From the NCBI GenBank assembly GCA_965228895.1, contig OZ245842.1:3136001-3200000 (forward strand): a stretch of 64,000 bases of DNA, given 5' to 3'. This document shows positions 53,230 through 61,561 of this stretch, in pieces. Position 1 is the stretch's first letter; each line of letters opens with the position of its first letter. The notes beneath the pieces are model-generated. The model was not told where the DNA came from. It made no database searches and was given only the letters and a program-made list of their open reading frames with translations. A program made the translations under genes and the position numbers. Source of the stretch: Alphaproteobacteria bacterium (lineage in GTDB: Bacteria > Pseudomonadota > Alphaproteobacteria > SP197).

Positions 53230-53583
53230 CTACTGCTGCTCGCAAATGACGGGGATGTCGTTCATCCATTCCATCGCGATCATGATCTCGTCCATCGGGA
53301 TTTCGGCCTGCAGCGCGTCGGACGCCTCCCGGTCGTTGGTGACCTGGGCGACCACCATCTCCTGCTGCTTCGGGGTAAGGTCAAGCCGCGCTCTTTCGCC
53401 GACGCACGCGCAGCCGCTGTCGGAAAGGTTAAGTTGAACTCGGCACTCCGCAACCAGCGTGTCGGCGGCATCGGGAGACGAGGCGTCGGCAGCGGTGCCG
53501 CCGGCGTCGGGGGCCGATTGACAGGCCGCGACGAGCGAAGCCAGCAGAACGACGGACGCAAAGACGCCATGGCGTTTGGCCAT
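53230..53583 (-). CDS. 4-Cys small lipoprotein, array paralog 1
   Basis: Lipobox-like LVAAC; C-x10-CxC...WM-x3-P-x2-CE. Confidence 0.8.
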   Translation of the reverse strand: MAKRHGVFASVVLLASLVAACQSAPDAGGTAADASSPDAADTLVAECRVQLNLSDSGCACVGERARLDLTPKQQEMVVAQVTNDREASDALQAEIPMDEIMIAMEWMNDIPVICEQQ

Positions 53584-53633
53584 CGCTCCCCTTCTCCCGA
53601 CCAGACGTCGCAACGTTGGCGCGGCGGCCGCGG

Positions 53634-53957
53634 TTACGGCTGCTCACAATCGGTGGGGGCGCTCATCATCCACTCGGCCGCCTGGGTCATTTCTTCGACG
53701 GTCATGCCCTGCATCAGGCTGTCGGATGCGGCTTTGTCATCGGTCACCTGGGCCAGCACAAACTCTTGCTGAGTCTCCGAAAGATCGCGGCGTGCGCTTT
53801 CACCGATGCAAGCGCAGCCACTATCGGAGAGCTCAAGTTGAACGTGGCATTCGTCCACCAGATCATCCGCGGCGTCCGCGTGCGCCTGACCAGCGATGAG
53901 GCCTGAAGCCAGTAAGGCGCCGAGGACGGCAGCGCCGAGACGGTGTGACGAAATCAT
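53634..53957 (-). CDS. 4-Cys small exported protein, array paralog 2
   Basis: Signal peptide ending AHA; same Cys/Trp motif. Confidence 0.8.
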   Translation of the reverse strand: MISSHRLGAAVLGALLASGLIAGQAHADAADDLVDECHVQLELSDSGCACIGESARRDLSETQQEFVLAQVTDDKAASDSLMQGMTVEEMTQAAEWMMSAPTDCEQP

Positions 53958-54066
53958 GATCTTTCCCCTATCGCTGATCAGCAGAAATCCACGGGTGACC
54001 TTTTAGGCCGCGAGGGCCGATCTGTCGAACGACCGGAGGTAGATGAGAGAAAACGCCACTGTCTTG

Positions 54067-54387
54067 TCAGTCGAACTCACATTTTGCCGGCGCATTGTCC
54101 ATCCAATCGCCGACATCGAAGACTTCTGTATCGGTCATCTCGCCTTCGAGTTTGGTGGACGCGGCTTCATCGCCGGTCAACTGCGCGACGACGTAGCCGC
54201 GCTGCGTTTTCGATAGCTCCTTGTCCGCGCTGTTGGCGATGCACTTGCACACGCTTTCGGCCAACTCAAGCTGGCCGAGGCAGGCCTTAACCAGCGGGTC
54301 GGCGGTTTCGGCCCGGGTCCCGGCTGAGAAAGCCAGGACGAGAACCGTGCCCGCCACGGCGACCCAGGACAGCGATGGCTTGGTCAT
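54067..54387 (-). CDS. 4-Cys small exported protein, array paralog 3
   Basis: Signal peptide; same Cys/Trp motif. Confidence 0.8.
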   Translation of the reverse strand: MTKPSLSWVAVAGTVLVLAFSAGTRAETADPLVKACLGQLELAESVCKCIANSADKELSKTQRGYVVAQLTGDEAASTKLEGEMTDTEVFDVGDWMDNAPAKCEFD

Positions 54388-54441
54388 GGTGTTCCCTTCC
54401 CTACCGACCAGCGAACGATCTCGTCGGCCGACTGCACACGC

Positions 54442-54765
54442 CTACTCAAACTCGCACTCGGCCGGCACTTGGTCCAACCAATCCAGAGAATAGTCGATTT
54501 CCTCGTCGGTCAGGTCCTGCGCGATCTCGTCGGCCACGGCGTCATCGCCCCAGACCAGCGCCAGTACGAAGTCCTGCTCATCCAGACTGAGCTCTTCGGC
54601 TGCGCTGTCGCCAAGGCACTCGCAGGCGCTCTCTGTCATGTCCAACTGAATGAGGCATTCCTCAACCAACGCCTCGACCGCATCCGCGCGTGCGGTTCCA
54701 ACAAAGAGAGACGAAGTGATGAGTGCACCGGCGATCGCGGCGCAGAACATACGAGCGTTGAGCAT
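54442..54765 (-). CDS. 4-Cys small exported protein, array paralog 4 (very acidic)
   Basis: Signal peptide ending ARA; same Cys/Trp motif. Confidence 0.8.
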   Translation of the reverse strand: MLNARMFCAAIAGALITSSLFVGTARADAVEALVEECLIQLDMTESACECLGDSAAEELSLDEQDFVLALVWGDDAVADEIAQDLTDEEIDYSLDWLDQVPAECEFE

Positions 54766-54907
54766 AGTGTTCCCCTGCAAAGTCTTTGTTGAACAAGCGT
54801 GTAGAGGACTCGACATGTCGGCCCAGAACGGGCCTGAGACAGATTGCCTGCGCCTTGTTTACGACGGCCAAATGCCGCTGTCGATCATCCCTAAGACGGT
54901 CTGCCGG

Positions 54908-54936
54908 TTGACACGGCCCGGCGACACACCTATGTG
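54908..54936 (+). promoter_or_regulatory. Sigma70-type promoter for the thrS leader
   Basis: TTGACA-17 bp-TATGTG, ending 7 nt before the leader ATG. Confidence 0.6.
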
Positions 54937-54943
54937 AACGCCC

Positions 54944-55021
54944 ATGTTCGGCTGGAATGCACAAACGTGGACGACCACGACGACCCGCAAAGGCGGGCCG
55001 CTGGGTTGTCGCGCGCGCTGA
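54944..55021 (+). CDS. Thr-rich leader peptide MFGWNAQTWTTTTTRKGGPLGCRAR
   Basis: Six Thr codons (five consecutive) directly upstream of a terminator and thrS. Confidence 0.85.
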   Translation: MFGWNAQTWTTTTTRKGGPLGCRAR

Positions 55022-55051
55022 ACGCCGCTTAGATAAAACACACACCCATTG

Positions 55052-55080
55052 GCCCCGCCGGCGACGGACGGGGCTTTTTT
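55052..55080 (+). terminator. Attenuator terminator upstream of thrS
   Basis: gccccg...cggggc followed by tttttt; 5' arm can alternatively pair with 54992-55006. Confidence 0.85.
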
Positions 55081-55124
55081 GTGTCCGGCCTCCGTCCACG
55101 CCCACGATGCAACGGAGACAAGAC

Positions 55125-56300
55125 ATGGACGAGAACGATCATAGAGCCATCGCCAACCGGATGGACCTGTTCCACCAGCAGGAGGAAGGTCCCGGTATGG
55201 TGTTCTGGCATCCCCGAGGATTCGCGCTCTACCGGATCATCGAGGACCACATCCGCGGCCACATGAAGCGCTCAGGCTTTCGCGAAATCCGCACGCCACA
55301 GCTTTTGGCGCGCGAGCTGTGGGAAAAAAGCGGTCACTGGGAAAAGTTCGCCGGCAACATGTTCGTCATCGACGACGACGAACACGCCCATGCGCTGAAA
55401 CCCATGAGCTGTCCGGCGCACGTGCAGGTCTTCAACAAGCGGGTGCGCTCGTTCCGCGACCTGCCGCTTCGTCTCGCCGAGTTCGGCGCCTGTCACCGCA
55501 ACGAACCGTCCGGTGCGCTTCATGGCCTGATGCGCACACGCGCGTTCGTGCAGGACGACGCGCATATCTTCTGCGCGCCCGATGATGTCGAATACGAGGT
55601 CGCGCGGTTCTGCCGCATGCTGTTCCAGATCTATGACGCGTTCGGCTTCGATGATGTCGCCGTCGCGTTTTCGACACGACCAGACAAGCGCGCGGGATCA
55701 GACGAAGCCTGGGACTGCGCCGAAGCCGCCCTGGAGGCTGCCGCCAAGGCGGCCGAACTCGACTATCGAGTCGACCCGGGCGAAGGCGCGTTTTATGGAC
55801 CCAAGCTGGACTTCCATCTGCGCGACAGTCACGGGCGCGACTGGCAGTGCGGCACCGTGCAGCTTGACCTGGTGCTGCCCGAACGCCTGGACGCCAGCTA
55901 CATCGACAGCGACGGCCAGCGCGCGCGTCCGGTGATGATCCACCACGCGGTGCTGGGCAGCATCGAGCGTTTTATCGGCATGCTGCTGGAACACCATAGC
56001 GGCGATCTGCCCCTGTGGCTGGCGCCCGAGCAGGTTATTGTCGCGAACATCACCGACGCCTCGGCGCCTTATGCGCACGAGGTCGCATCGAAGCTGGAAG
56101 CCGACGGCTTGCGCGTTGCACTCGATGTGCGATCGGATCGCATCGCCAAGAAGATCATCGATGCGCGCAGCGCGGGCATCCCGGTCCTGGCCGCCGTTGG
56201 TGAGCGCGAAGCACGCGACGGCACGGTCTCGCTTCGCCAGCGCGACGGCAGTCAAGACGTTGTGGCTCTCAACGACGCGGCCTGTGTCTTGGCTCCCTGA
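55125..56300 (+). CDS. thrS: Threonyl-tRNA synthetase, short form lacking TGS/editing domains
   Basis: Begins at the DHR motif; SGHW, KPMSCP, HRNEPSGALHGLMR, QDDAH, GEGAFYGPK, WQCGTVQLD, LGSIERF; GGAG RBS. Confidence 0.93.
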   Translation: MDENDHRAIANRMDLFHQQEEGPGMVFWHPRGFALYRIIEDHIRGHMKRSGFREIRTPQLLARELWEKSGHWEKFAGNMFVIDDDEHAHALKPMSCPAHVQVFNKRVRSFRDLPLRLAEFGACHRNEPSGALHGLMRTRAFVQDDAHIFCAPDDVEYEVARFCRMLFQIYDAFGFDDVAVAFSTRPDKRAGSDEAWDCAEAALEAAAKAAELDYRVDPGEGAFYGPKLDFHLRDSHGRDWQCGTVQLDLVLPERLDASYIDSDGQRARPVMIHHAVLGSIERFIGMLLEHHSGDLPLWLAPEQVIVANITDASAPYAHEVASKLEADGLRVALDVRSDRIAKKIIDARSAGIPVLAAVGEREARDGTVSLRQRDGSQDVVALNDAACVLAP

Positions 56301-56374
56301 GCGCGCCCGGTACGGCCCGGCATTGCGTGAACTTTGTGGTCGCGTAGAGTGCAGGATTCGATGGGGGAGCCTTC

Positions 56375-57913
56375 ATGGAAGATCGCTACGCCAAGAAATG
56401 GCGCGCGCTGGTCGGCATCAGCCTGCTTTCGTTTATCGTTTTCATGGATTACGGCATCGTCAACACGATTCTGCCGGGCATCCAGGCCGACCTCCTGGCG
56501 AGCGTCAGGCAATTGCAATGGGTCATGAACGTCTTCTTTATGACGCTTGCCATGTTCATGGTGACGATGGGGCGTCTGGGCGACATCTATGGCCGCCGGC
56601 GCGTGCTCTATATCGGCGTTGTCGTCTTCGGCGTCGCCTCGGCGGTGTGCGGCGCGTCGCCTGACCCCGCCATTCTGATCGCCGCGCGTGCGGTGCAGGG
56701 CACGGCGGCCGCAATCGGGCTGACCTGTGCGGCATCGCTGGTCACCCATGCCTTTCCGGAGGACGAGAAAGGCCGCGCGCTCGGTTTCTTCATGAGCATC
56801 ACCGCCGTCGGCATGGCGATCGGCCCGGTGATCGGCGGTTTCTTCCTGTCGTTTCTGTCGTGGCGCTGGGCGTTTTACGTCAACATTCCCGTCATCATCG
56901 TCGGCTTCATGATCTGCCGTGGCGCGGTGCCGGAAACGCCGCGCCTGCTGAGCGAAAAGGTCGACTGGCTGGGCCTGTTGTTCCTGGTGCCGGGCATCGG
57001 CGTCATGGTGCTGGCGATCATGCAGGGCAATAGCTGGGGCTGGGGCTCCGACGTCATGATCGCGCTCTATATCGTGACCGCCCTCTGCCTGGTCGCGTTT
57101 ATCGTTGTCGAGAAGCGCGTGGCCTCGCCCATCGTAGACCTTAAACTTTTTCGCCACCCAATGTTCCAAAGCGCGGTCTTCGCCGGCTTCGGCCTGGGCG
57201 GCTTTATCGGCATCGGCACGTTTCTGCCGGCGCTTTTCCTGATCAACATCCAGGGAATGCCGGCCTATGTCGCCGGCATGATGCTGCTGCCGATCACCGT
57301 GCTTGTCATGATCATCCCGCCGGCGATCGGCAAACTGGTCGACGCCAGGGGCCCGGCCGGTTTCATGATCCTGGGTCAGGCGATCCTGGTGATCGCCGCA
57401 GTTGTCCAGGTCTTCTTCGTCCCGGCGTCGCCGGCCTGGTTCGTGCTGCTGGGGCTTGCGCTGTTCGGCCTGGGCTGGGGTTTCCAGCAGGCCTCGACGG
57501 CGGTCGCTGCTACCAGCGCACTGCCGCCCGAAGCGGCCGGGCTTGCCATCGGCTCGCTGTGGACGTTCTGGAACATCGCCTCGTCGATCACGCTCGCGGT
57601 CGGTGGCATGATCCTGCGCGTCGTCGATCAGTCGCGCCTGGACGCGTCGCTGGCGGCGAACAACATCTCGCTCAGCAACCAGCAGCAGCATGTCATCCGC
57701 AGCCTTTTGTCGGACCCCAGTCGCGCAGAACAGACGCTGGGCGAACTGCCGGCCAAACTGTCGACGGAAATCACGCCCCTGTTCCACGACAGTTTCACAG
57801 AAGGCTACAACGGCGCCATGCTGTTCATGGCGATCTGGTGCGCGGTATGTCTGATCGGCACGATCCTGACCGCCATGCGCGGGCGCAAGGCCACTGCAGC
57901 AACGCCAGACTGA
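56375..57913 (+). CDS. MFS efflux transporter, DHA2 (EmrB/QacA) family
   Basis: D.GIVN..LP.I, GRLGDIYGRRR, GPVIGG, WRWAFYVNIP; about 14 TM. Confidence 0.9.
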   Translation: MEDRYAKKWRALVGISLLSFIVFMDYGIVNTILPGIQADLLASVRQLQWVMNVFFMTLAMFMVTMGRLGDIYGRRRVLYIGVVVFGVASAVCGASPDPAILIAARAVQGTAAAIGLTCAASLVTHAFPEDEKGRALGFFMSITAVGMAIGPVIGGFFLSFLSWRWAFYVNIPVIIVGFMICRGAVPETPRLLSEKVDWLGLLFLVPGIGVMVLAIMQGNSWGWGSDVMIALYIVTALCLVAFIVVEKRVASPIVDLKLFRHPMFQSAVFAGFGLGGFIGIGTFLPALFLINIQGMPAYVAGMMLLPITVLVMIIPPAIGKLVDARGPAGFMILGQAILVIAAVVQVFFVPASPAWFVLLGLALFGLGWGFQQASTAVAATSALPPEAAGLAIGSLWTFWNIASSITLAVGGMILRVVDQSRLDASLAANNISLSNQQQHVIRSLLSDPSRAEQTLGELPAKLSTEITPLFHDSFTEGYNGAMLFMAIWCAVCLIGTILTAMRGRKATAATPD

Positions 57914-57998
57914 CTGTCGTCACCACATCGTTGTTCACTAAAGCGCGGCAATGGCAGACTTCGGATCATTTGGAACGGTGTATGAAAGGTAAATCTTC

Positions 57999-58949
57999 AT
58001 GAGATATGTTGTACGGGCCATCGCGGCCGCTCTCGTCGTTTGGGTGGGCGTCGGTTTCGCGCCGACGACCATGGCGCAGGACCATCCGCCGGCGGTGATC
58101 TTTGAAGGCTTGATGGACAACTTCTTCGGCCAGGACAACGGTCTCGTGGTCTTCGGCACTTATGACATCGCCTTTGCGCCGGAGGGCCAAATCGATGCCA
58201 TCGTCGGCGTCGTCAATTCCGACGGCGAGGTAATGGCGCAGTTCCCGTTTTTCCCGGATTACAAAATTCACGAGGGGGTGTTCGGACGCATCCAAGTTGT
58301 TGGACCGGCCGACGTTCAATTGACCGAACCTGGTATCTACACGATGGTCTTTGTCGTGGACGGCGAACCGATCACACGGTTTCCGTTTCTGCTGGAACAG
58401 ACCGGTGACGGTTCGGATCCTTTCGATCCCGAAAAAACCTACGCCTTCGACGGATACTGGCGCACGCTCGCTCACATCACGACCGGCAGTGTGAACGATC
58501 AACCAATTCCGATATTTTCGATTTGGCTCGGCGGCGTCGATATGCCGACGCCGGATACCTTCCAGGAGTACTTCGCGGCCGAACTCATGCGCGATGGCGT
58601 GCTCATTGCCCATGCCCAAAAGCAAACGAGCTCCTACAGCAATGGTCAATTCAGGCGCCAAGAGGTCATCATCTACCAGCCCCATGAGGAAAATCAGGCG
58701 CACAACGCCATTGCGTTCACCATGGCCGACATGTCTGTTGACGGTTCCTATGAGCTGAACATCAGTCGACAATCCGACGGCGGCCTGTTGCGCAGTTACC
58801 GCTTTACGGTTTCCGGCGGTGAGATCGTACCTTTGCCCCGGACACAACTGGGCTTCGAACCGGCATCCGACTACATCGTGCCGCGAGTCACGCGTAAAGG
58901 ATCGACCATCTACGAGTTCGAAGAAGTAATCTGGATCGCCAGTGAATAG
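57999..58949 (+). CDS. Exported hypothetical protein (beta-rich, acidic)
   Basis: Signal peptide ending TMA; 316-aa ORF, no recognised motif. Confidence 0.75.
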   Translation: MRYVVRAIAAALVVWVGVGFAPTTMAQDHPPAVIFEGLMDNFFGQDNGLVVFGTYDIAFAPEGQIDAIVGVVNSDGEVMAQFPFFPDYKIHEGVFGRIQVVGPADVQLTEPGIYTMVFVVDGEPITRFPFLLEQTGDGSDPFDPEKTYAFDGYWRTLAHITTGSVNDQPIPIFSIWLGGVDMPTPDTFQEYFAAELMRDGVLIAHAQKQTSSYSNGQFRRQEVIIYQPHEENQAHNAIAFTMADMSVDGSYELNISRQSDGGLLRSYRFTVSGGEIVPLPRTQLGFEPASDYIVPRVTRKGSTIYEFEEVIWIASE

Positions 58950-58972
58950 CATGGTGCGATCAAGAGCATGAG

Positions 58973-59001
58973 TTGACCACGCGCCCGCAACGGCATAGAT
59001 A
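58973..59001 (+). promoter_or_regulatory. Sigma70-type promoter for the metG leader
   Basis: TTGACC-17 bp-TAGATA, ending 5 nt before the leader ATG. Confidence 0.55.
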
Positions 59002-59006
59002 GAGGC

Positions 59007-59087
59007 ATGGTCAATCTGACGAACCTTTCGGCCGCGATGATGAAACCGCACATGATGCATGGGGCGGCTTCCTTCGTTATGTCCTGA
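59007..59087 (+). CDS. Met-rich leader peptide MVNLTNLSAAMMKPHMMHGAASFVMS
   Basis: Five internal Met codons including two ATG-ATG pairs, upstream of a terminator and metG. Confidence 0.8.
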   Translation: MVNLTNLSAAMMKPHMMHGAASFVMS

Positions 59088-59116
59088 CGACACCAAGAAT
59101 TACCTGACCACGAAAC

Positions 59117-59148
59117 AAGCCGCCTCCTTCGCGAGGCGGTTTTTCTTT
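59117..59148 (+). terminator. Attenuator terminator upstream of metG
   Basis: aagccgcctc-cttcgc-gaggcggttt followed by ttcttt; 5' arm can alternatively pair with ggggcggctt at 59061-59070. Confidence 0.85.
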
Positions 59149-59188
59149 GTCGAATGCCGTCTTGCGTCTTGGCGCAGCGGAGAACGAC

Positions 59189-60754
59189 ATGAACTACCAT
59201 TCCGACACGACCCGAAGACCGTCCTGGTACATCACGACGGCGATCCCTTACGTCAATGCCGCGCCCCATATCGGCTTTGCGCTGGAGCTGGTGCAGGCCG
59301 ACTGCCTGGCGCGCTTTCATCAGGCCGCCGGCTATGACGTGCGCTTCCAGACAGGTAGCGACGAAAACAGCCTGAAGAATGTTGTCGCCGCCGAGAAGGC
59401 CGGCGTCACGGCACGCCAGCTTGTCGCCGAGAACGCGCAGCTCTTCGTGCGCCTGGGCAACGCGCTGAACACACGCGCCGACGGTTTCATCCGCACCAGC
59501 GCCGATGCGCGCCATCGCCTTGGCGTCGAAAAGCTGTGGCGCGCCGCTGACGCGCGCGGCGACATCTACAAAAAGGCCTATAGCGGCCTCTATTGCGTGG
59601 GCTGCGAACAATTCTATCGGCCCGACGACCTCGAACACGGCAGGTGTCCGGAACACGGCACCGAACCGGAGGAGGTCGAGGAAGAGAACTACTTCTTCCG
59701 ACTATCGCGCTACCGCCATGCGCTGCTTGAACGCATCACCTCTGGCGAGCTTTCGATCGAACCGGCGGGCCGCAGGAACGAAGTGCTGCGATGGCTCGAG
59801 GAAGGGCTGGATGACTTTTCGATCTCGCGGTCAAGCGAACGTGCCCATGGCTGGGGCTTGGCCGTGCCGGGCGATCCCGATCAGGTCATCTACGTCTGGT
59901 TCGATGCGCTGGGCAACTATGTCACCGCGCTCGATTACGATATCGAAGGCGGCCTTTATCAACGTTACTGGACCGGCGCCGCACAGCGCAGCCATGTTGT
60001 CGGCAAAGGCATCACTCGGTTTCACGCGATCTATTGGCCGGCCATGCTGCTGTCGGCCGGTCTGCCCTTGCCCGATCGTATTCTGGTGCACGGCTATGTC
60101 ACTGTCGAAGGCGACAAGATCGGCAAGTCGACGGGCAACGCCGTCGACCCGCTTCCGGTCATCGCCGCTTACGGCGCGGACGCGCTGCGCTACTACCTGC
60201 TGCGCCATATCCGAACCGCCGAAGACGGCGACTTCAGCCACGAGCGGCTGGCGCAAACCTATCAAACCGAGCTCGCCGGGCAATACGGCAACCTCGCCAA
60301 CCGCGTGTTGAGTTTGATCGAACGCTATGCGGATGGCGTTGTGCCCGCACGCGCCGAGAACGCCGAACCGACTGCGCTCGCCAAAGCAGTGGCGGACCTG
60401 CCGAACGCCGTTGCGGCGCATGTCGACCGGTTCTCGCTGCACGAAGCCGTGGCCGCGATCTGGGACGTCATCGGCGAGGCCAACCGCCATGTCGCCGCGA
60501 CCGAACCGTGGTCGCTGGCCAAACAGGTCGCGGCCCTCGACGACAGCACGGAGGCAAGCGCGGCGCGGCGGGCTCTCAATACCTGCTTGCACGACCTCGC
60601 CACAGCACTTGATGCCGTGGCACGTGCCTGCTGGCCGTTTCTGCCCGAGACGTCGGAAAAACTGCTGGCGCAGCTCGGCCTGACATCGGCCGTTGACCGT
60701 CGACCTCTCACGGGGCGGCGTGTGCGCTCAGGGTCGGTGTTGTTTCCGCGTTGA
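59189..60754 (+). CDS. metG: Methionyl-tRNA synthetase, short atypical form
   Basis: YITTAIPYVN..PHIGF, TGSDE, YCVGCE...CPEH knuckle, YVWFDAL.NY, GK.ITRFH, KIGKS.GN, GNL.NR. Confidence 0.93.
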   Translation: MNYHSDTTRRPSWYITTAIPYVNAAPHIGFALELVQADCLARFHQAAGYDVRFQTGSDENSLKNVVAAEKAGVTARQLVAENAQLFVRLGNALNTRADGFIRTSADARHRLGVEKLWRAADARGDIYKKAYSGLYCVGCEQFYRPDDLEHGRCPEHGTEPEEVEEENYFFRLSRYRHALLERITSGELSIEPAGRRNEVLRWLEEGLDDFSISRSSERAHGWGLAVPGDPDQVIYVWFDALGNYVTALDYDIEGGLYQRYWTGAAQRSHVVGKGITRFHAIYWPAMLLSAGLPLPDRILVHGYVTVEGDKIGKSTGNAVDPLPVIAAYGADALRYYLLRHIRTAEDGDFSHERLAQTYQTELAGQYGNLANRVLSLIERYADGVVPARAENAEPTALAKAVADLPNAVAAHVDRFSLHEAVAAIWDVIGEANRHVAATEPWSLAKQVAALDDSTEASAARRALNTCLHDLATALDAVARACWPFLPETSEKLLAQLGLTSAVDRRPLTGRRVRSGSVLFPR

Positions 60755-60769
60755 TCCGAAAACCGGAAC

Positions 60770-61561
60770 TTAAGGACTAGCCGCCATCCATTCGCTCGCC
60801 AGGCGTTGGGCTTCGGCCATCTGGTCGGAGGTCATTTCTGTGAGCACGATGTCGCGGTTGTGGGCGGCAACAGTGTCGCCCTGGGCTGCGGCGAGACCGA
60901 ACCACAGGAAGGCGCGGGCGAGATTGCGCTCCATACCGGCGCCGTCATAGTACATGACCGCCAGGCGGTGCTGGGCACCGGCATGACCTTGGTCGGCGGC
61001 GCGGCGAAACCACGTCGCGGCGATCGTGTCGTCCTGCGTCACACCGCGGCCCATGTAATGCATGTTGCCCAGATTGAACTGTGCCTTGACGTTACCCTGC
61101 CATGCGGCTTCCGAGAACCAGGTGACGGCGGCCGCGTAGTCGAGCGGCACACCCTCGCCCTTGACATACATGGTGGCGAAGTCGAATTGCGCGACGTGGA
61201 AACCCTGCTCGGCCGCACGGCCAATCCACTTCGCGGCTTCGCCGTGGTCCTGCGGCACGCCGATGCCGGCATAGTACATGACGCCGATATTGTACTGCGA
61301 CATGAAGTGGCCGCCTTCGGCCGCGCGGGCGAACCACAGTGCGGCGCTCTCGTTGTCCTGGGGCACGCCGAGGCCGTCGAAATAGAGCGCGCCGACATTG
61401 TACTGGGCTTGCGTCAGGCCTTGCTCTGCGAGCGGCATCCATGCCGCCATCGCAGCCTCGTAGTCACCGCTTTCGTATGCGCTGGTGCCGTCCTGGAGCG
61501 TGGCTTGCGCCGGCGCCGCCAGCAGCACGGTCACGACACACAACAAGGCCAGATATCGCAT
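60770..61561 (-). CDS. Exported Sel1-like repeat protein
   Basis: Five repeats of AQ.N.G.MY..G.GV.QD...A..WF.RAA.QG. Confidence 0.92.
   Translation of the reverse strand: MRYLALLCVVTVLLAAPAQATLQDGTSAYESGDYEAAMAAWMPLAEQGLTQAQYNVGALYFDGLGVPQDNESAALWFARAAEGGHFMSQYNIGVMYYAGIGVPQDHGEAAKWIGRAAEQGFHVAQFDFATMYVKGEGVPLDYAAAVTWFSEAAWQGNVKAQFNLGNMHYMGRGVTQDDTIAATWFRRAADQGHAGAQHRLAVMYYDGAGMERNLARAFLWFGLAAAQGDTVAAHNRDIVLTEMTSDQMAEAQRLASEWMAASP

What the first reader, a model, noticed from the sequence alone, without database searches (positions are those of the whole stretch)
55125..60754. Each synthetase is depleted of its own cognate amino acid
Hand count from the translations: MetRS (521 aa) has only one internal Met (WPAML) but about 26 Thr. 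ThrRS (391 aa) has only 6 Thr but 10 Met. The depletion is reciprocal and reaches conserved motifs: KMSKS becomes KIGKS and FTQDDAH becomes FVQDDAH. Inference: selection so that each rescue enzyme can be translated when its charged tRNA is scarce, which independently supports the attenuator model.
Basis: partly seen in the sequence, partly recalled or inferred. Interest (0 to 1): 0.8.

Follow-up and report, generated by a model that had tools for sequence, protein, structure and literature searches.

The report
Backup synthetases purged of own amino acid
Two spare tRNA-charging enzymes, one for threonine and one for methionine, each sit behind a switch that senses shortage of their own amino acid and are built with unusually little of it, a pattern shared by many relatives in other bacteria.

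Summary
The counts are right. The 391-aa ThrRS-like protein has 6 Thr and 10 Met. The 521-aa MetRS-like protein has 1 internal Met and 26 Thr. Each is an extreme outlier in its own genome: 2 of 2206 long ORFs are as poor in that residue.

The depletion is a clade property.
- 120 of 120 nearest MetRS relatives have 0-7 internal Met. 120 housekeeping alphaproteobacterial MetRS have 8-15, with no overlap.
- The truncated ThrRS clade has about 2.1% Thr against about 3.6% in housekeeping ThrRS over the same region. This is weaker, and the ranges overlap.

A Thr-run leader ORF plus hairpin precedes 10 of 11 truncated ThrRS loci and 2 of 70 full-length ones. A Met-pair leader plus hairpin precedes 18 of 37 low-Met MetRS loci and 1 of 29 normal ones.

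The motif argument fails. Housekeeping MetRS already carries KISKS (111 of 120), and 21 of 85 housekeeping ThrRS already carry V in FTQDDAH.

Best reading: these are auxiliary synthetases switched on by low charged tRNA and purged of cognate codons so that they can still be translated. The trigger (starvation or an inhibitor) is open, and the leader/depletion link is essentially one origin per family. In nine literature searches I found no description of this for synthetases.

The parts
54944..55021 (+). Thr leader ORF, 25 codons plus stop: MFGWNAQTWTTTTTRKGGPLGCRAR. Six Thr codons at positions 8 and 10-14 (ACG x4, ACC x2).
   Evidence: Thr-run leader ORFs occur in the same place in 10 of 11 truncated ThrRS loci.
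54992..55000 (+). Predicted antiterminator strand GGCGGGCCG, inside the leader ORF (the G-G-P codons). It can pair with the 5' arm of the terminator.
   Evidence: Fold of 54986-55066 without the 3' arm gives -36 kcal/mol. The GGCGGG block is conserved in the alignment of 10 leaders. The pairing is predicted, not shown.
55051..55081 (+). Terminator-like hairpin GGCCCCGCCGG..CGGACGGGGC (55051-55075) followed by UUUUUU (55076-55081).
   Evidence: Folds. The stem is nearly invariant in sequence in 10 of 10 aligned loci from alpha- and betaproteobacteria. The simple consensus scan did not flag it.
55090..55117 (+). Hairpin in which CUCCGU pairs with ACGGAG, the likely ribosome-binding site just before the ThrRS2 start.
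   Evidence: Minimum-energy fold. Similar CCTCC...GGAG arrangements are seen by eye in the leaders printed. Not analysed further.
55125..56300 (+). ThrRS2: an N-terminally truncated threonyl-tRNA synthetase paralog of 391 aa (class II core plus anticodon-binding domain, no TGS or editing domains). 6 Thr.
   Evidence: Pfam PF00587 and PF03129 only. TIGR00418 scores 468 bits against a cut-off of 384. It aligns to residues 250-623 of a 641-aa solved ThrRS (6vu9) and to 242-614 of the 642-aa chain 1qf6, the span also covered by 401-411-aa ThrRS chains such as 1evk. It is 56% identical to the genome's full-length ThrRS.
56375..57913 (+). MFS transporter of 512 aa, DHA2/EmrB-like efflux type, with normal Thr and Met content (4.5% each). 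Possibly co-transcribed with ThrRS2.
   Evidence: PF07690. TIGR00711 scores 203.5 bits, below its cut-off of 230.2. No strong terminator was flagged in the 74-nt gap. Not linked to ThrRS2 in the other genomes.
57999..58949 (+). Hypothetical protein of 316 aa with a hydrophobic N-terminus. Role unknown.
   Evidence: Only a sub-threshold DUF6941 match (23.2 bits against 27). No NCBIfam match.
59007..59087 (+). Met leader ORF, 26 codons plus stop: MVNLTNLSAAMMKPHMMHGAASFVMS. Two Met-Met pairs plus one more Met.
   Evidence: Met-pair or Met-triple leaders occur upstream of related low-Met MetRS genes, for example MNRSLANATMMMPRS in a Rhizobium plasmid and MITPSRQHRMMPRTRGC in a Streptomyces plasmid.
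59062..59070 (+). Predicted antiterminator strand GGGCGGCUU, directly after the second Met pair. It can pair with the terminator's 5' arm AAGCCGCCU.
   Evidence: Fold of 59062-59134 gives -20.9 kcal/mol, z -2.7, with 1 of 200 shuffles as good. Predicted only.
59117..59150 (+). Intrinsic terminator: a 10-pair stem (59117-59142) followed by a T-rich tail.
   Evidence: Flagged by the consensus scan. Fold gives -17.3 kcal/mol, z -3.4.
59189..60754 (+). MetRS2: a second methionyl-tRNA synthetase of 521 aa, of a type with a CxxC...CPxH knuckle, with HIGF and KIGKS in place of the usual signature motifs. One internal Met (M286).
   Evidence: PF09334. TIGR00398 scores 417 bits against a cut-off of 336. 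42% identical to the genome's housekeeping MetRS. Best solved relative is 4dlp, a chain named methionine--tRNA ligase. Clade alignment A1.

Best explanation
The locus holds two auxiliary aminoacyl-tRNA synthetases next to the genome's normal ones.
- ThrRS2 is a naturally truncated ThrRS with the catalytic and anticodon-binding domains only.
- MetRS2 is a distant MetRS paralog.

Each is preceded by a ribosome-mediated transcription attenuator: a short leader ORF rich in the cognate codon, a strand that can form an antiterminator, and an intrinsic terminator.

Inferred working:
1. When charged tRNA-Thr (or tRNA-Met) is plentiful, the leader is translated quickly, the terminator forms, and the gene stays off.
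2. When charged tRNA is scarce, the ribosome stalls on the Thr (or Met) codons. The scarcity may come from lack of the amino acid or from failure or inhibition of the housekeeping synthetase.
3. The antiterminator then forms and the spare synthetase is transcribed.
4. That same shortage would also stall ribosomes inside the spare gene. So selection has removed cognate codons from it wherever the protein tolerates the change.
   - Met is down to 0-7 residues across the MetRS2 clade, and only three internal alignment columns are mostly Met.
   - Thr is cut by about 40% in ThrRS2, with the two universally conserved Thr kept.

This is the 'cognate bias' logic proposed for amino-acid biosynthetic enzymes, applied here to synthetases.

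Shown here: the sequence features, their specificity to the cognate residue, and their conservation across relatives. Inferred: the regulation, the enzymatic activity and the selective reason.
For: 1. Both proteins are at the extreme of their own proteome for exactly the cognate residue.

2. The depletion is clade-wide.
- The 120 best MetRS2 relatives (55-100% identical) have 0-7 internal Met (median 3; 0.57%) and normal Thr (4.4%).
- 120 housekeeping alphaproteobacterial MetRS have 8-15 (median 11). There is no overlap.
- Met is the most depleted residue (0.62% against 2.18%).
- The 120 best ThrRS2 relatives, all 371-421 aa, have 4-14 Thr (median 2.03%) and normal Met.
- 85 housekeeping ThrRS have 9-20 Thr over the same region (median 14).
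- Thr is the most depleted residue against a GC-similar set (ratio 0.60, but only n=8).

3. Same-genome pairs, truncated against full-length ThrRS: 7v12, 8v14, 9v16, 10v14, 6v15, 6v20 and 6v13. That is 7 of 7 lower.

4. Among 134 full-length representatives of MetRS clusters at 50% identity, 18 have <= 0.4% Met, many with none. On a tree of 170 rows, a large clade of 44 holds 40 low-Met rows despite long branches. Low-Met rows also appear elsewhere; well-supported branches force at least 12 changes.

5. Leaders.
- A Thr-run leader plus hairpin occurs in 10 of 11 truncated ThrRS loci and 2 of 70 full-length ThrRS 5' regions.
- A Met-pair leader plus hairpin occurs in 18 of 37 low-Met, 4 of 11 intermediate and 1 of 29 normal-Met MetRS loci. 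Control pairs of W, C, H or Y appear in at most 4 of 37.

6. Terminators and alternative pairings are predicted for both leaders. The Thr terminator stem is conserved in 10 of 10 loci.

7. Both proteins pass NCBI's equivalog cut-offs for ThrRS and MetRS.

8. Accessory status.
- Both genes have a normal partner in this genome.
- All 7 other genomes with a truncated ThrRS had two matches.
- Relatives sit on plasmids of Rhizobium, Sinorhizobium, Streptomyces, Burkholderia and Caballeronia.

9. Negative control: a full-length plasmid thrS in Acetobacter lies beside a Fur-family repressor and folE. It has 30 Thr in 625 aa and is not depleted.
Against: 1. The Thr effect is modest.
- Against its own housekeeping copy it is not significant (p=0.087).
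- ThrRS2 counts (4-14) overlap the housekeeping range (9-20).
- Leader-bearing copies on the Burkholderia sp. M701 and Caballeronia sp. SBC2 plasmids have 12 and 14 Thr.

2. Housekeeping ThrRS is itself Thr-poor over this region (3.6% against 5.4% for the proteome). Part of the signal is therefore a family trait.

3. Leader and depletion co-occur as one clade per family. The test on independent pairs found only 4-5 usable pairs, with no difference in most. The Fisher p is inflated by relatedness. Effectively there are two independent cases, Thr and Met.

4. 19 low-Met MetRS loci have no leader. 18 of these were examined: 16 come from AT-rich contigs (31-47% GC, the other two 54% and 67%), and pooled flanking ORFs are mostly also Met-poor. 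So low Met can have other causes.

5. L084 has the conserved hairpin but a leader without a Thr run.

6. MetRS2 carries HIGF instead of HIGH. Activity is assumed, not shown.

7. The proteome used for percentiles is a crude ORF set with unrefined start codons.

8. The comparison trees are FastTree or quick IQ-TREE builds.
Confidence: 0.68

Rival explanations
1. These are inducible resistance copies against natural synthetase inhibitors. An inhibitor of the housekeeping ThrRS or MetRS lowers charged tRNA, the attenuator opens, and an insensitive spare enzyme is made. In this genome an efflux pump may be made with it. Cognate depletion then serves the same purpose, but the real-world trigger is an antibiotic rather than starvation.
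For: - A DHA2/EmrB-like MFS transporter lies 74 nt downstream of ThrRS2 with no flagged terminator between them.
- Drug-related neighbours occur in 2 of the 7 other loci whose neighbours were listed; 10 neighbouring ORFs from five of them were scanned in Pfam. One locus has an MFS plus a GyrI-like AraC regulator (L001). Another has an aminoglycoside N-acetyltransferase-family gene (L081).
- Copies are plasmid-borne, some on conjugative plasmids.
[quoted passage not shown] The paper itself is not held.
Against: - No conserved resistance or biosynthetic neighbours were seen. Neighbours differ in every locus examined.
- No known resistance-conferring residues were tested.
- The MFS scores below its family cut-off, and its linkage is unique to this genome among the loci seen.
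Confidence: 0.22
2. The low counts are a composition or lineage effect. This kind of synthetase, or this lineage, simply has few Thr or Met, with no selection tied to regulation.
For: - Housekeeping ThrRS is already Thr-poor over the same region (3.64%).
- KISKS and FVQDDAH are ordinary variants.
- AT-rich lineages have low-Met MetRS without leaders, alongside Met-poor neighbouring genes.
- Each leader-bearing clade may be a single origin.
Against: - The depletion is specific to the cognate residue in each family, while the other residue is normal.
- MetRS2 and housekeeping MetRS from similar high-GC alphaproteobacteria do not overlap at all.
- The low level is held across branches of 0.5-1.3 changes per site, with many members at exactly zero Met.
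- Same-genome pairs are 7 of 7 lower for Thr.
Confidence: 0.06
3. Met is removed from MetRS2 to make an oxidation-proof enzyme, since Met is easily oxidised. The Thr depletion would then be unrelated.
For: Met-free proteins resist methionine oxidation (general knowledge, recalled). Nothing from the calls points to this specifically.
Against: - MetRS2 has more Cys than housekeeping MetRS, not less (1.57% against 0.67%).
- The gene is preceded by a Met-codon leader, which senses Met-tRNA.
- A parallel cognate depletion exists in ThrRS2, where oxidation is no argument.
Confidence: 0.04

Closest known systems
Cognate bias in amino-acid biosynthetic enzymes (Alves and Savageau 2005, as described in Fasani and Savageau 2014, PMC4209129; passages read)
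   Same: The logic is the same. A protein needed to end a shortage of amino acid X should contain little X, so that it can still be made during the shortage. The depletion is measured against the proteome.
   Different: That work concerns biosynthetic enzymes. In the passages found, PMC4209129 and PMC3468366 do not treat tRNA synthetases. Here the proteins are spare synthetases, the depletion reaches zero Met in many members, and it comes paired with a leader rich in the same codon.
Leader-peptide transcription attenuators (the classical trp/thr/his type; His leaders upstream of hisS paralogs in bacilli, PMC2965389, passages read)
   Same: Each has a short ORF with a run of the regulatory codon, an intrinsic terminator and a competing pairing. 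In bacilli such a leader also controls extra copies of a synthetase-family gene.
   Different: No Rfam family matches either leader. A Met-codon leader and a Thr leader in front of a synthetase were not found in my literature searches. Only two or three Met codons are used. The Thr terminator stem is unusually conserved in sequence.
Auxiliary, stress-specific synthetase copies: the cyanobacterial ThrRS T2 induced at low zinc (PMC4787780; review PMC9437257, passages read), and the antibiotic-resistant TrpRS of Streptomyces under ribosome-mediated attenuation (title only)
   Same: A second synthetase gene is kept silent and switched on when the main enzyme cannot keep up. In the Streptomyces case the title says the switch is ribosome-mediated attenuation.
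   Different: T2 answers to zinc, not to charged tRNA. The review's passages list no duplicated MetRS, no leader and no starvation case (0 occurrences of 'MetRS', 'leader' and 'starvation'). None of the passages I read mentions depletion of the cognate residue.
Short ThrRS chains in the Protein Data Bank (401-411 aa, e.g. 1evk, 4hwo)
   Same: ThrRS2 covers the same span as these chains. It aligns to residues 242-614 of the full-length chain 1qf6.
   Different: ThrRS2 is a natural gene. That the short chains are laboratory N-terminal deletions which charge tRNA but cannot edit Ser-tRNA-Thr is recalled, not checked here.

Membership tests
Threonyl-tRNA synthetase (class II, NCBIfam TIGR00418) | Whole-protein score above the curated equivalog cut-off | tested here: met
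   468.4 bits against a cut-off of 383.65.
Threonyl-tRNA synthetase (class II, NCBIfam TIGR00418) | Class II catalytic core plus HGTP anticodon-binding domain | tested here: met
   PF00587 at residues 82-291 and PF03129 at 303-382.
Threonyl-tRNA synthetase (class II, NCBIfam TIGR00418) | N-terminal TGS and editing domains of bacterial full-length ThrRS | tested here: not met
   The protein starts at the position matching residue about 247 of the genome's 645-aa ThrRS and residue 250 of 6vu9. The sequence upstream is the leader and terminator. It is therefore a truncated form.
Threonyl-tRNA synthetase (class II, NCBIfam TIGR00418) | Active-site Cys/His/His blocks (that these are the zinc ligands is recalled) | tested here: met
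   The blocks MSCPAH, QDDAHIF and VMIHHAVLGS align with the housekeeping copy and with 6vu9.
Methionyl-tRNA synthetase (class I, NCBIfam TIGR00398) | Score above the curated cut-off | tested here: met
   416.8 bits against 336.35. PF09334 E=2e-94.
Methionyl-tRNA synthetase (class I, NCBIfam TIGR00398) | HIGH signature (motif name recalled) | tested here: not met
   It reads HIGF. H27, G29 and F30 are invariant in the 115-row clade alignment. HxGF also occurs in normal-Met MetRS: 13 of 46 HxGF rows have >1.0% Met. So it is a natural variant, but its effect on activity is unknown.
Methionyl-tRNA synthetase (class I, NCBIfam TIGR00398) | KMSKS signature (motif name recalled) | tested here: inconclusive
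   It reads KIGKS. K310, I311 and K313 are invariant and S314 nearly so. Housekeeping relatives read KISKS in 111 of 120.
Leader-peptide transcription attenuator | Short ORF with clustered codons for the regulating amino acid, just upstream of the gene | tested here: met
   Thr leader has 6 Thr in 7 codons. Met leader has two Met-Met pairs. Both are conserved in relatives.
Leader-peptide transcription attenuator | Intrinsic terminator between the leader and the gene | tested here: met
   The Met terminator was flagged by the scan and folds at -17.3 kcal/mol. The Thr hairpin with its U6 tract is predicted by folding, was not flagged by the scan, and is conserved in 10 of 10 loci.
Leader-peptide transcription attenuator | Mutually exclusive antiterminator pairing that a stalled ribosome would favour | tested here: inconclusive
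   Alternative pairings are predicted for both leaders. The covariation term is only -0.12, and no antiterminator appears in the consensus fold.
Leader-peptide transcription attenuator | Read-through rises when the cognate charged tRNA falls | not testable with these tools
   No RNA run was listed for this sequence.
T-box riboswitch (the usual charge sensor of synthetase genes in Gram-positive bacteria) | Match to the Rfam T-box model | tested here: not met
   No Rfam match at E<=1 in window 54600-60900. There was also none in the 16 leaderless low-Met loci.
Cognate bias (as defined for biosynthetic enzymes) | Cognate residue under-represented relative to the proteome and to comparable proteins | tested here: met
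Cognate bias (as defined for biosynthetic enzymes) | The protein is an enzyme of the cognate amino acid's biosynthetic pathway | tested here: not met
   Both proteins are tRNA synthetases. The locus works like the concept but lies outside its original definition.
Antibiotic-resistant auxiliary synthetase | Insensitivity to an inhibitor, or linkage to the inhibitor's biosynthetic genes | tested here: inconclusive
   Resistance cannot be tested here. Neighbours vary and show no biosynthetic cluster in the loci examined. An efflux-type MFS is adjacent only in this genome.

The most novel reading that the evidence does not exclude
There may be a widespread, unrecognised class of 'shortage-proof' spare synthetases built on one design rule. 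The sensor (the leader) is enriched in a codon, and the effector (the gene) is purged of that same codon. For MetRS this reaches complete absence of internal Met. It spans Proteobacteria and Actinobacteria, is often plasmid-borne, and may have arisen several times. The same rule may hold for other synthetase families. These genes may be the natural inducible defence against synthetase-targeting antibiotics made by competitors, here co-induced with an efflux pump.
Probability: 0.3. Interest if true: 0.85.

Novelty: new variant of a known kind. Interest (0 to 1): 0.7.

Why it matters
This would extend a long-standing idea, that proteins which relieve a shortage avoid the scarce residue, from biosynthetic enzymes to the translation machinery itself.

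It would give a sequence-only rule for spotting conditionally expressed spare synthetases: a cognate-rich leader plus a cognate-poor gene.

It would define two sizeable, unnamed paralog clades that current annotation simply calls 'threonine--tRNA ligase' and 'methionine--tRNA ligase':
- a truncated, editing-less ThrRS;
- a nearly Met-free MetRS with HIGF and KIGKS.

It makes a clean experiment possible: add back cognate codons and measure rescue.

The editing-less ThrRS also raises a fidelity question. It is unclear whether Ser is mischarged during Thr shortage, or whether the full-length enzyme proofreads in trans.

If the trigger is an inhibitor, these genes matter for how soil bacteria resist natural synthetase inhibitors.

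Tried and rejected
- Rfam found no known family for either leader and no T-box in the leaderless low-Met loci.
- The single genome-contig scan with ThrRS2 was swamped by housekeeping ThrRS through the pattern QDDAHIFC. Only L001 was of the truncated type. I used the other loci as housekeeping controls instead.
It gave a gradient of identities rather than the clade alone.
- MetRS2 at E<=1e-130 was found in 0 of 300 other genomes of the class and in 0 of 23 genomes of the order of G301. So I have no same-genome MetRS pair other than G000's. That the plasmid-borne copies accompany a chromosomal metG is assumed.
- The independent-pairs test of leader against low Met had only 4-5 pairs and was uninformative.
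- A genome-wide scan of G000 for codon-run leaders was far too noisy and was dropped.
- HxGF is not a marker of low Met.
- No RNA holder was listed.
- No conserved neighbours of ThrRS2 were found.
- No structure prediction, complex prediction or atlas search was run.
- Supplementary files of papers were closed and not requested. Those of PMC4209129 might list per-gene biases.
- Literature searches: (nine in all). From these I saw listings and abstracts. I read passages of PMC2965389, PMC4209129, PMC9437257, PMC4787780 and PMC3468366. None of the passages described cognate-depleted synthetases, a Met-codon leader, or a truncated bacterial ThrRS behind a Thr leader. The library omits most subscription journals.

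Full report
WHAT IS THERE

On the + strand the region reads as follows:
- a 25-codon leader ORF (54944-55021, MFGWNAQTWTTTTTRKGGPLGCRAR);
- a GC-rich hairpin with a U6 tract (55051-55081);
- a 391-aa ThrRS-like gene (55125-56300);
- an MFS transporter gene (56375-57913);
- a 316-aa gene of unknown function (57999-58949);
- a 26-codon leader ORF (59007-59087, MVNLTNLSAAMMKPHMMHGAASFVMS);
- an intrinsic terminator (59117-59150);
- a 521-aa MetRS-like gene (59189-60754).

The ThrRS-like protein has only the class II core and the anticodon-binding domain. It passes NCBI's thrS equivalog cut-off. It aligns to residues 250-623 of a 641-aa solved ThrRS and to 242-614 of the full-length chain 1qf6, so it is a natural N-terminal truncation without the editing domain. 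The MetRS-like protein passes the metG cut-off.

The genome (5.53 Mb, one contig) also encodes a full-length ThrRS (645 aa, 56% identical) and a second MetRS (519 aa, 42% identical) elsewhere. The two window genes are therefore extra copies. I call them ThrRS2 and MetRS2.

THE OBSERVATION

- ThrRS2 has 6 Thr and 10 Met.
- MetRS2 has 2 Met (the start and M286) and 26 Thr.
- The two genes between them are ordinary: the MFS has 4.5% Met and 4.5% Thr; the 316-aa protein has 2.8% and 6.0%.

In a crude ORF-based proteome of the genome (3587 ORFs; Thr 5.44%, internal Met 2.50%), the binomial tails are 7.7e-5 and 2.7e-5. Only 2 of 2206 ORFs of at least 300 aa are as Thr-poor as ThrRS2, and only 2 of 2206 are as Met-poor as MetRS2. 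The two Thr-poor ones look like non-coding frames.

Against the housekeeping copies of the same genome the picture splits.
- MetRS2 has 1 internal Met against 10 (p=0.0056).
- ThrRS2 has 6 Thr against 13 over the aligned region (p=0.087).

The housekeeping ThrRS region is itself Thr-poor.

THE MOTIF CLAIM FAILS

The genome's own housekeeping MetRS already reads KISKS, as do 111 of 120 housekeeping alphaproteobacterial MetRS. The loss of Met from that motif therefore predates MetRS2.

At the FTQDDAH position, 119 of 128 truncated ThrRS have V, but so do 21 of 85 housekeeping ThrRS.

The two Thr that are invariant in all ThrRS (positions 57 and 244 of ThrRS2) are kept. The clade even has a Thr of its own at position 138.

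THE DEPLETION IS A CLADE PROPERTY

ThrRS. The 120 best database relatives of ThrRS2 are all 371-421 aa and 66-100% identical. They carry 4-14 Thr (median 2.03%) with normal Met (2.26%). Over the same region, 85 housekeeping ThrRS from Proteobacteria carry 9-20 Thr (median 14; 3.64%).

In seven genomes that hold both forms, the truncated copy always has fewer Thr: 7v12, 8v14, 9v16, 10v14, 6v15, 6v20 and 6v13. Against the few housekeeping sequences of similar composition (n=8), Thr is the most depleted of the 20 residues, at a ratio of 0.60.

MetRS. The signal is much stronger. The 120 best relatives (55-100% identical) have 0-7 internal Met (median 3; 0.57%) and normal Thr. 120 housekeeping alphaproteobacterial MetRS have 8-15 (median 11). 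The two distributions do not overlap, and Met is the most depleted residue.

In the clade alignment only three internal columns are Met in half or more of the rows (positions 34, 286 and 376). Sporadic Met has a median of one per sequence. The window's protein has replaced even two of those three.

Wider family. Among 134 full-length representatives of MetRS clusters at 50% identity nearest to MetRS2, 18 have at most 0.4% Met, many with none. On a FastTree of 170 rows, MetRS2 falls in a clade of 44 rows, of which 40 are low-Met, despite terminal branches of 0.5-1.3 changes per site. Further low-Met rows sit beside normal-Met sisters elsewhere. Well-supported branches force at least 12 changes of state. 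The low level has therefore been held for a long time and may have arisen more than once.

LEADERS GO WITH THE DEPLETED CLADES

ThrRS. With one fixed rule (small ORF, at least 3 Thr in 5 codons, stop 40-230 nt before the gene, local hairpin of -15 kcal/mol or better):
- 10 of 11 truncated ThrRS loci score. These are the window, seven genomes, a Paraburkholderia MAG, and plasmids of Burkholderia sp. M701 and Caballeronia sp. SBC2.
- 2 of 70 true 5' regions of full-length ThrRS score.

The exception, L084, has the hairpin but a leader without a Thr run. The hairpin stem is almost invariant in sequence across 10 of 10 aligned loci from alpha- and betaproteobacteria.

MetRS. With the analogous rule (two Met within three codons):
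- 18 of 37 low-Met loci score, along with 4 of 11 intermediate and 1 of 29 normal-Met loci.
- Control residue pairs (W, C, H, Y) score in at most 4 of 37.

Named examples:
- Rhizobium sp. CCGE532 plasmid metG: 1 internal Met, leader MNRSLANATMMMPRS.
- Sinorhizobium sp. RAC02 conjugative plasmid: 1 Met, leader MHTNPINVTMMMLRS.
- Rhizobium sp. ACO-34A plasmid: 3 Met.
- Streptomyces sp. NBC_01558 plasmid: 1 Met, leader MITPSRQHRMMPRTRGC.

Switch structures. For both window leaders, folding predicts the terminator. It also predicts an alternative pairing of the terminator's 5' arm with a strand lying just after the cognate codons. That is the layout of a classical attenuator. No Rfam family matches.

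CAVEATS THAT CUT AGAINST THE READING

- The Thr effect is modest and its range overlaps the housekeeping range. Two leader-bearing betaproteobacterial plasmid copies have 12 and 14 Thr.
- The link between leader and depletion is essentially one clade per family. On a tree of 73 loci only 4-5 phylogenetically independent pairs differ in Met level, and the leader did not differ in most of them. The Fisher p of 3e-5 is therefore inflated. The honest count is two independent cases, Thr and Met.
- Nineteen low-Met MetRS loci have no leader. Of the 18 examined, 16 are AT-rich contigs (31-47% GC, the other two 54% and 67%), and their pooled flanking ORFs are mostly also Met-poor, which points to a proteome-wide effect. 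They have no T-box.
- MetRS2 has HIGF where most MetRS have HIGH. This variant also occurs in normal-Met MetRS. Activity is assumed.
- No expression data exist.

HOW IT MOST LIKELY WORKS

Low charged tRNA-Thr or tRNA-Met stalls the ribosome in the leader. The antiterminator forms and the spare synthetase is transcribed. Because it contains few cognate codons, it can be completed under the very shortage that induced it, and it restores charging. This is the 'cognate bias' logic proposed for biosynthetic enzymes (PMC4209129, passages), moved to synthetases.

Whether the natural trigger is starvation or an inhibitor of the housekeeping enzyme cannot be told.
- For the inhibitor reading: the adjacent efflux-type MFS, the drug-related neighbours in two other loci, and the plasmid location.
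- Against it: the lack of any conserved neighbour.

A useful negative control is a full-length plasmid thrS of Acetobacter beside a Fur-family repressor and folE. It looks like a metal-limitation copy and is not Thr-depleted, with 30 Thr in 625 aa.

WHAT IS KNOWN

- Cognate bias is described for biosynthetic enzymes (PMC4209129, PMC3468366; passages). In those passages neither paper treats synthetases.
- Leader peptides in front of synthetase-family paralogs are reported for hisS copies in bacilli (PMC2965389, passages).
- A review of duplicated synthetases lists ThrRS T2 (zinc), resistant TrpRS, SerRS and others. It has no occurrence of 'MetRS', 'leader' or 'starvation' (PMC9437257).
- An attenuator-controlled resistant TrpRS in Streptomyces is known to me by title only.
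- Nine full-text searches turned up no description of cognate-depleted synthetases, of a Met-codon leader, or of the truncated ThrRS clade. The library lacks most subscription journals, so this is absence in what I could search, not proof.

VERDICT

The conserved-motif argument is wrong. It is a new variant of known kinds (cognate bias plus leader-peptide attenuation), applied to two unnamed synthetase paralog clades. The tallies include two unpublished genomes (G040, G240) in their denominators only.

Noticed in passing
window 53230-54816, minus strand: Four tandem paralogous small ORFs (127, 107, 106 and 124 aa). Each has a hydrophobic N-terminus and shares Cys-containing blocks (..EC..QL.L..S.C.C.G...) and a C-terminal ..W(M/L)...P..CE.. 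block. They look like a tandem family of small secreted proteins, directly upstream of the Thr leader and divergently oriented.
   Followed up: no
window 55090-55117: Between the Thr terminator and the ThrRS2 start, CUCCGU pairs with ACGGAG, the likely ribosome-binding site, in the minimum-energy fold. Similar CCTCC...GGAG pairs are visible in other ThrRS2 leaders. This suggests a second, translational layer of control.
   Followed up: partly
L182 1-5433 and L183 1-3619 (Acetobacter oryzifermentans and Gluconobacter albidus plasmids): A thrS copy (annotated full length, 625 aa, in L182; the match is unannotated in L183) sits after folE, a DUF1826 gene and a Fur-family repressor. In Acetobacter an ABC transporter follows. 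It looks like a metal-limitation synthetase copy carried on plasmids. The Acetobacter one is not Thr-depleted.
   Followed up: partly
L084 715-950: One truncated ThrRS locus keeps the conserved hairpin, but its leader reads MQNVILTVVTIKVAAAGGGRGRCAC. This is a mix of Ile, Val and Thr with no Thr run, so it may sense something else or may have decayed.
   Followed up: no
L131, L099, L108, L115, L101, L106, L179 (leaders upstream of the MetRS-like genes): Many Met leaders end in or contain the same ..MMPR.. peptide, in metagenome contigs and in a Streptomyces plasmid. The conserved AUGAUGCCCCGC may be kept for RNA pairing rather than for the peptide.
   Followed up: no
window 59189-60754 (residues 136-156 of MetRS2): MetRS2 has a CxxC...CPxH knuckle that the genome's housekeeping MetRS lacks. 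Its clade is richer in Cys (1.57% against 0.67%). The two MetRS copies therefore belong to different structural subtypes rather than being a recent duplication.
   Followed up: partly
G058, G062, G170, G182, G221, G233, G237: Seven further genomes of the class sample also showed two ThrRS matches, with weaker best E-values. Their second copies were not listed among the 150 matches shown and were not examined.
   Followed up: no
L136 (upstream of a normal-Met MetRS): A small ORF upstream carries both a TTTT run and a Met cluster (MSEQQQRTISTTTTWSMSIMDMSLPC...) before a hairpin. The MetRS downstream has 8 Met. It may be chance or a different attenuator.
   Followed up: no
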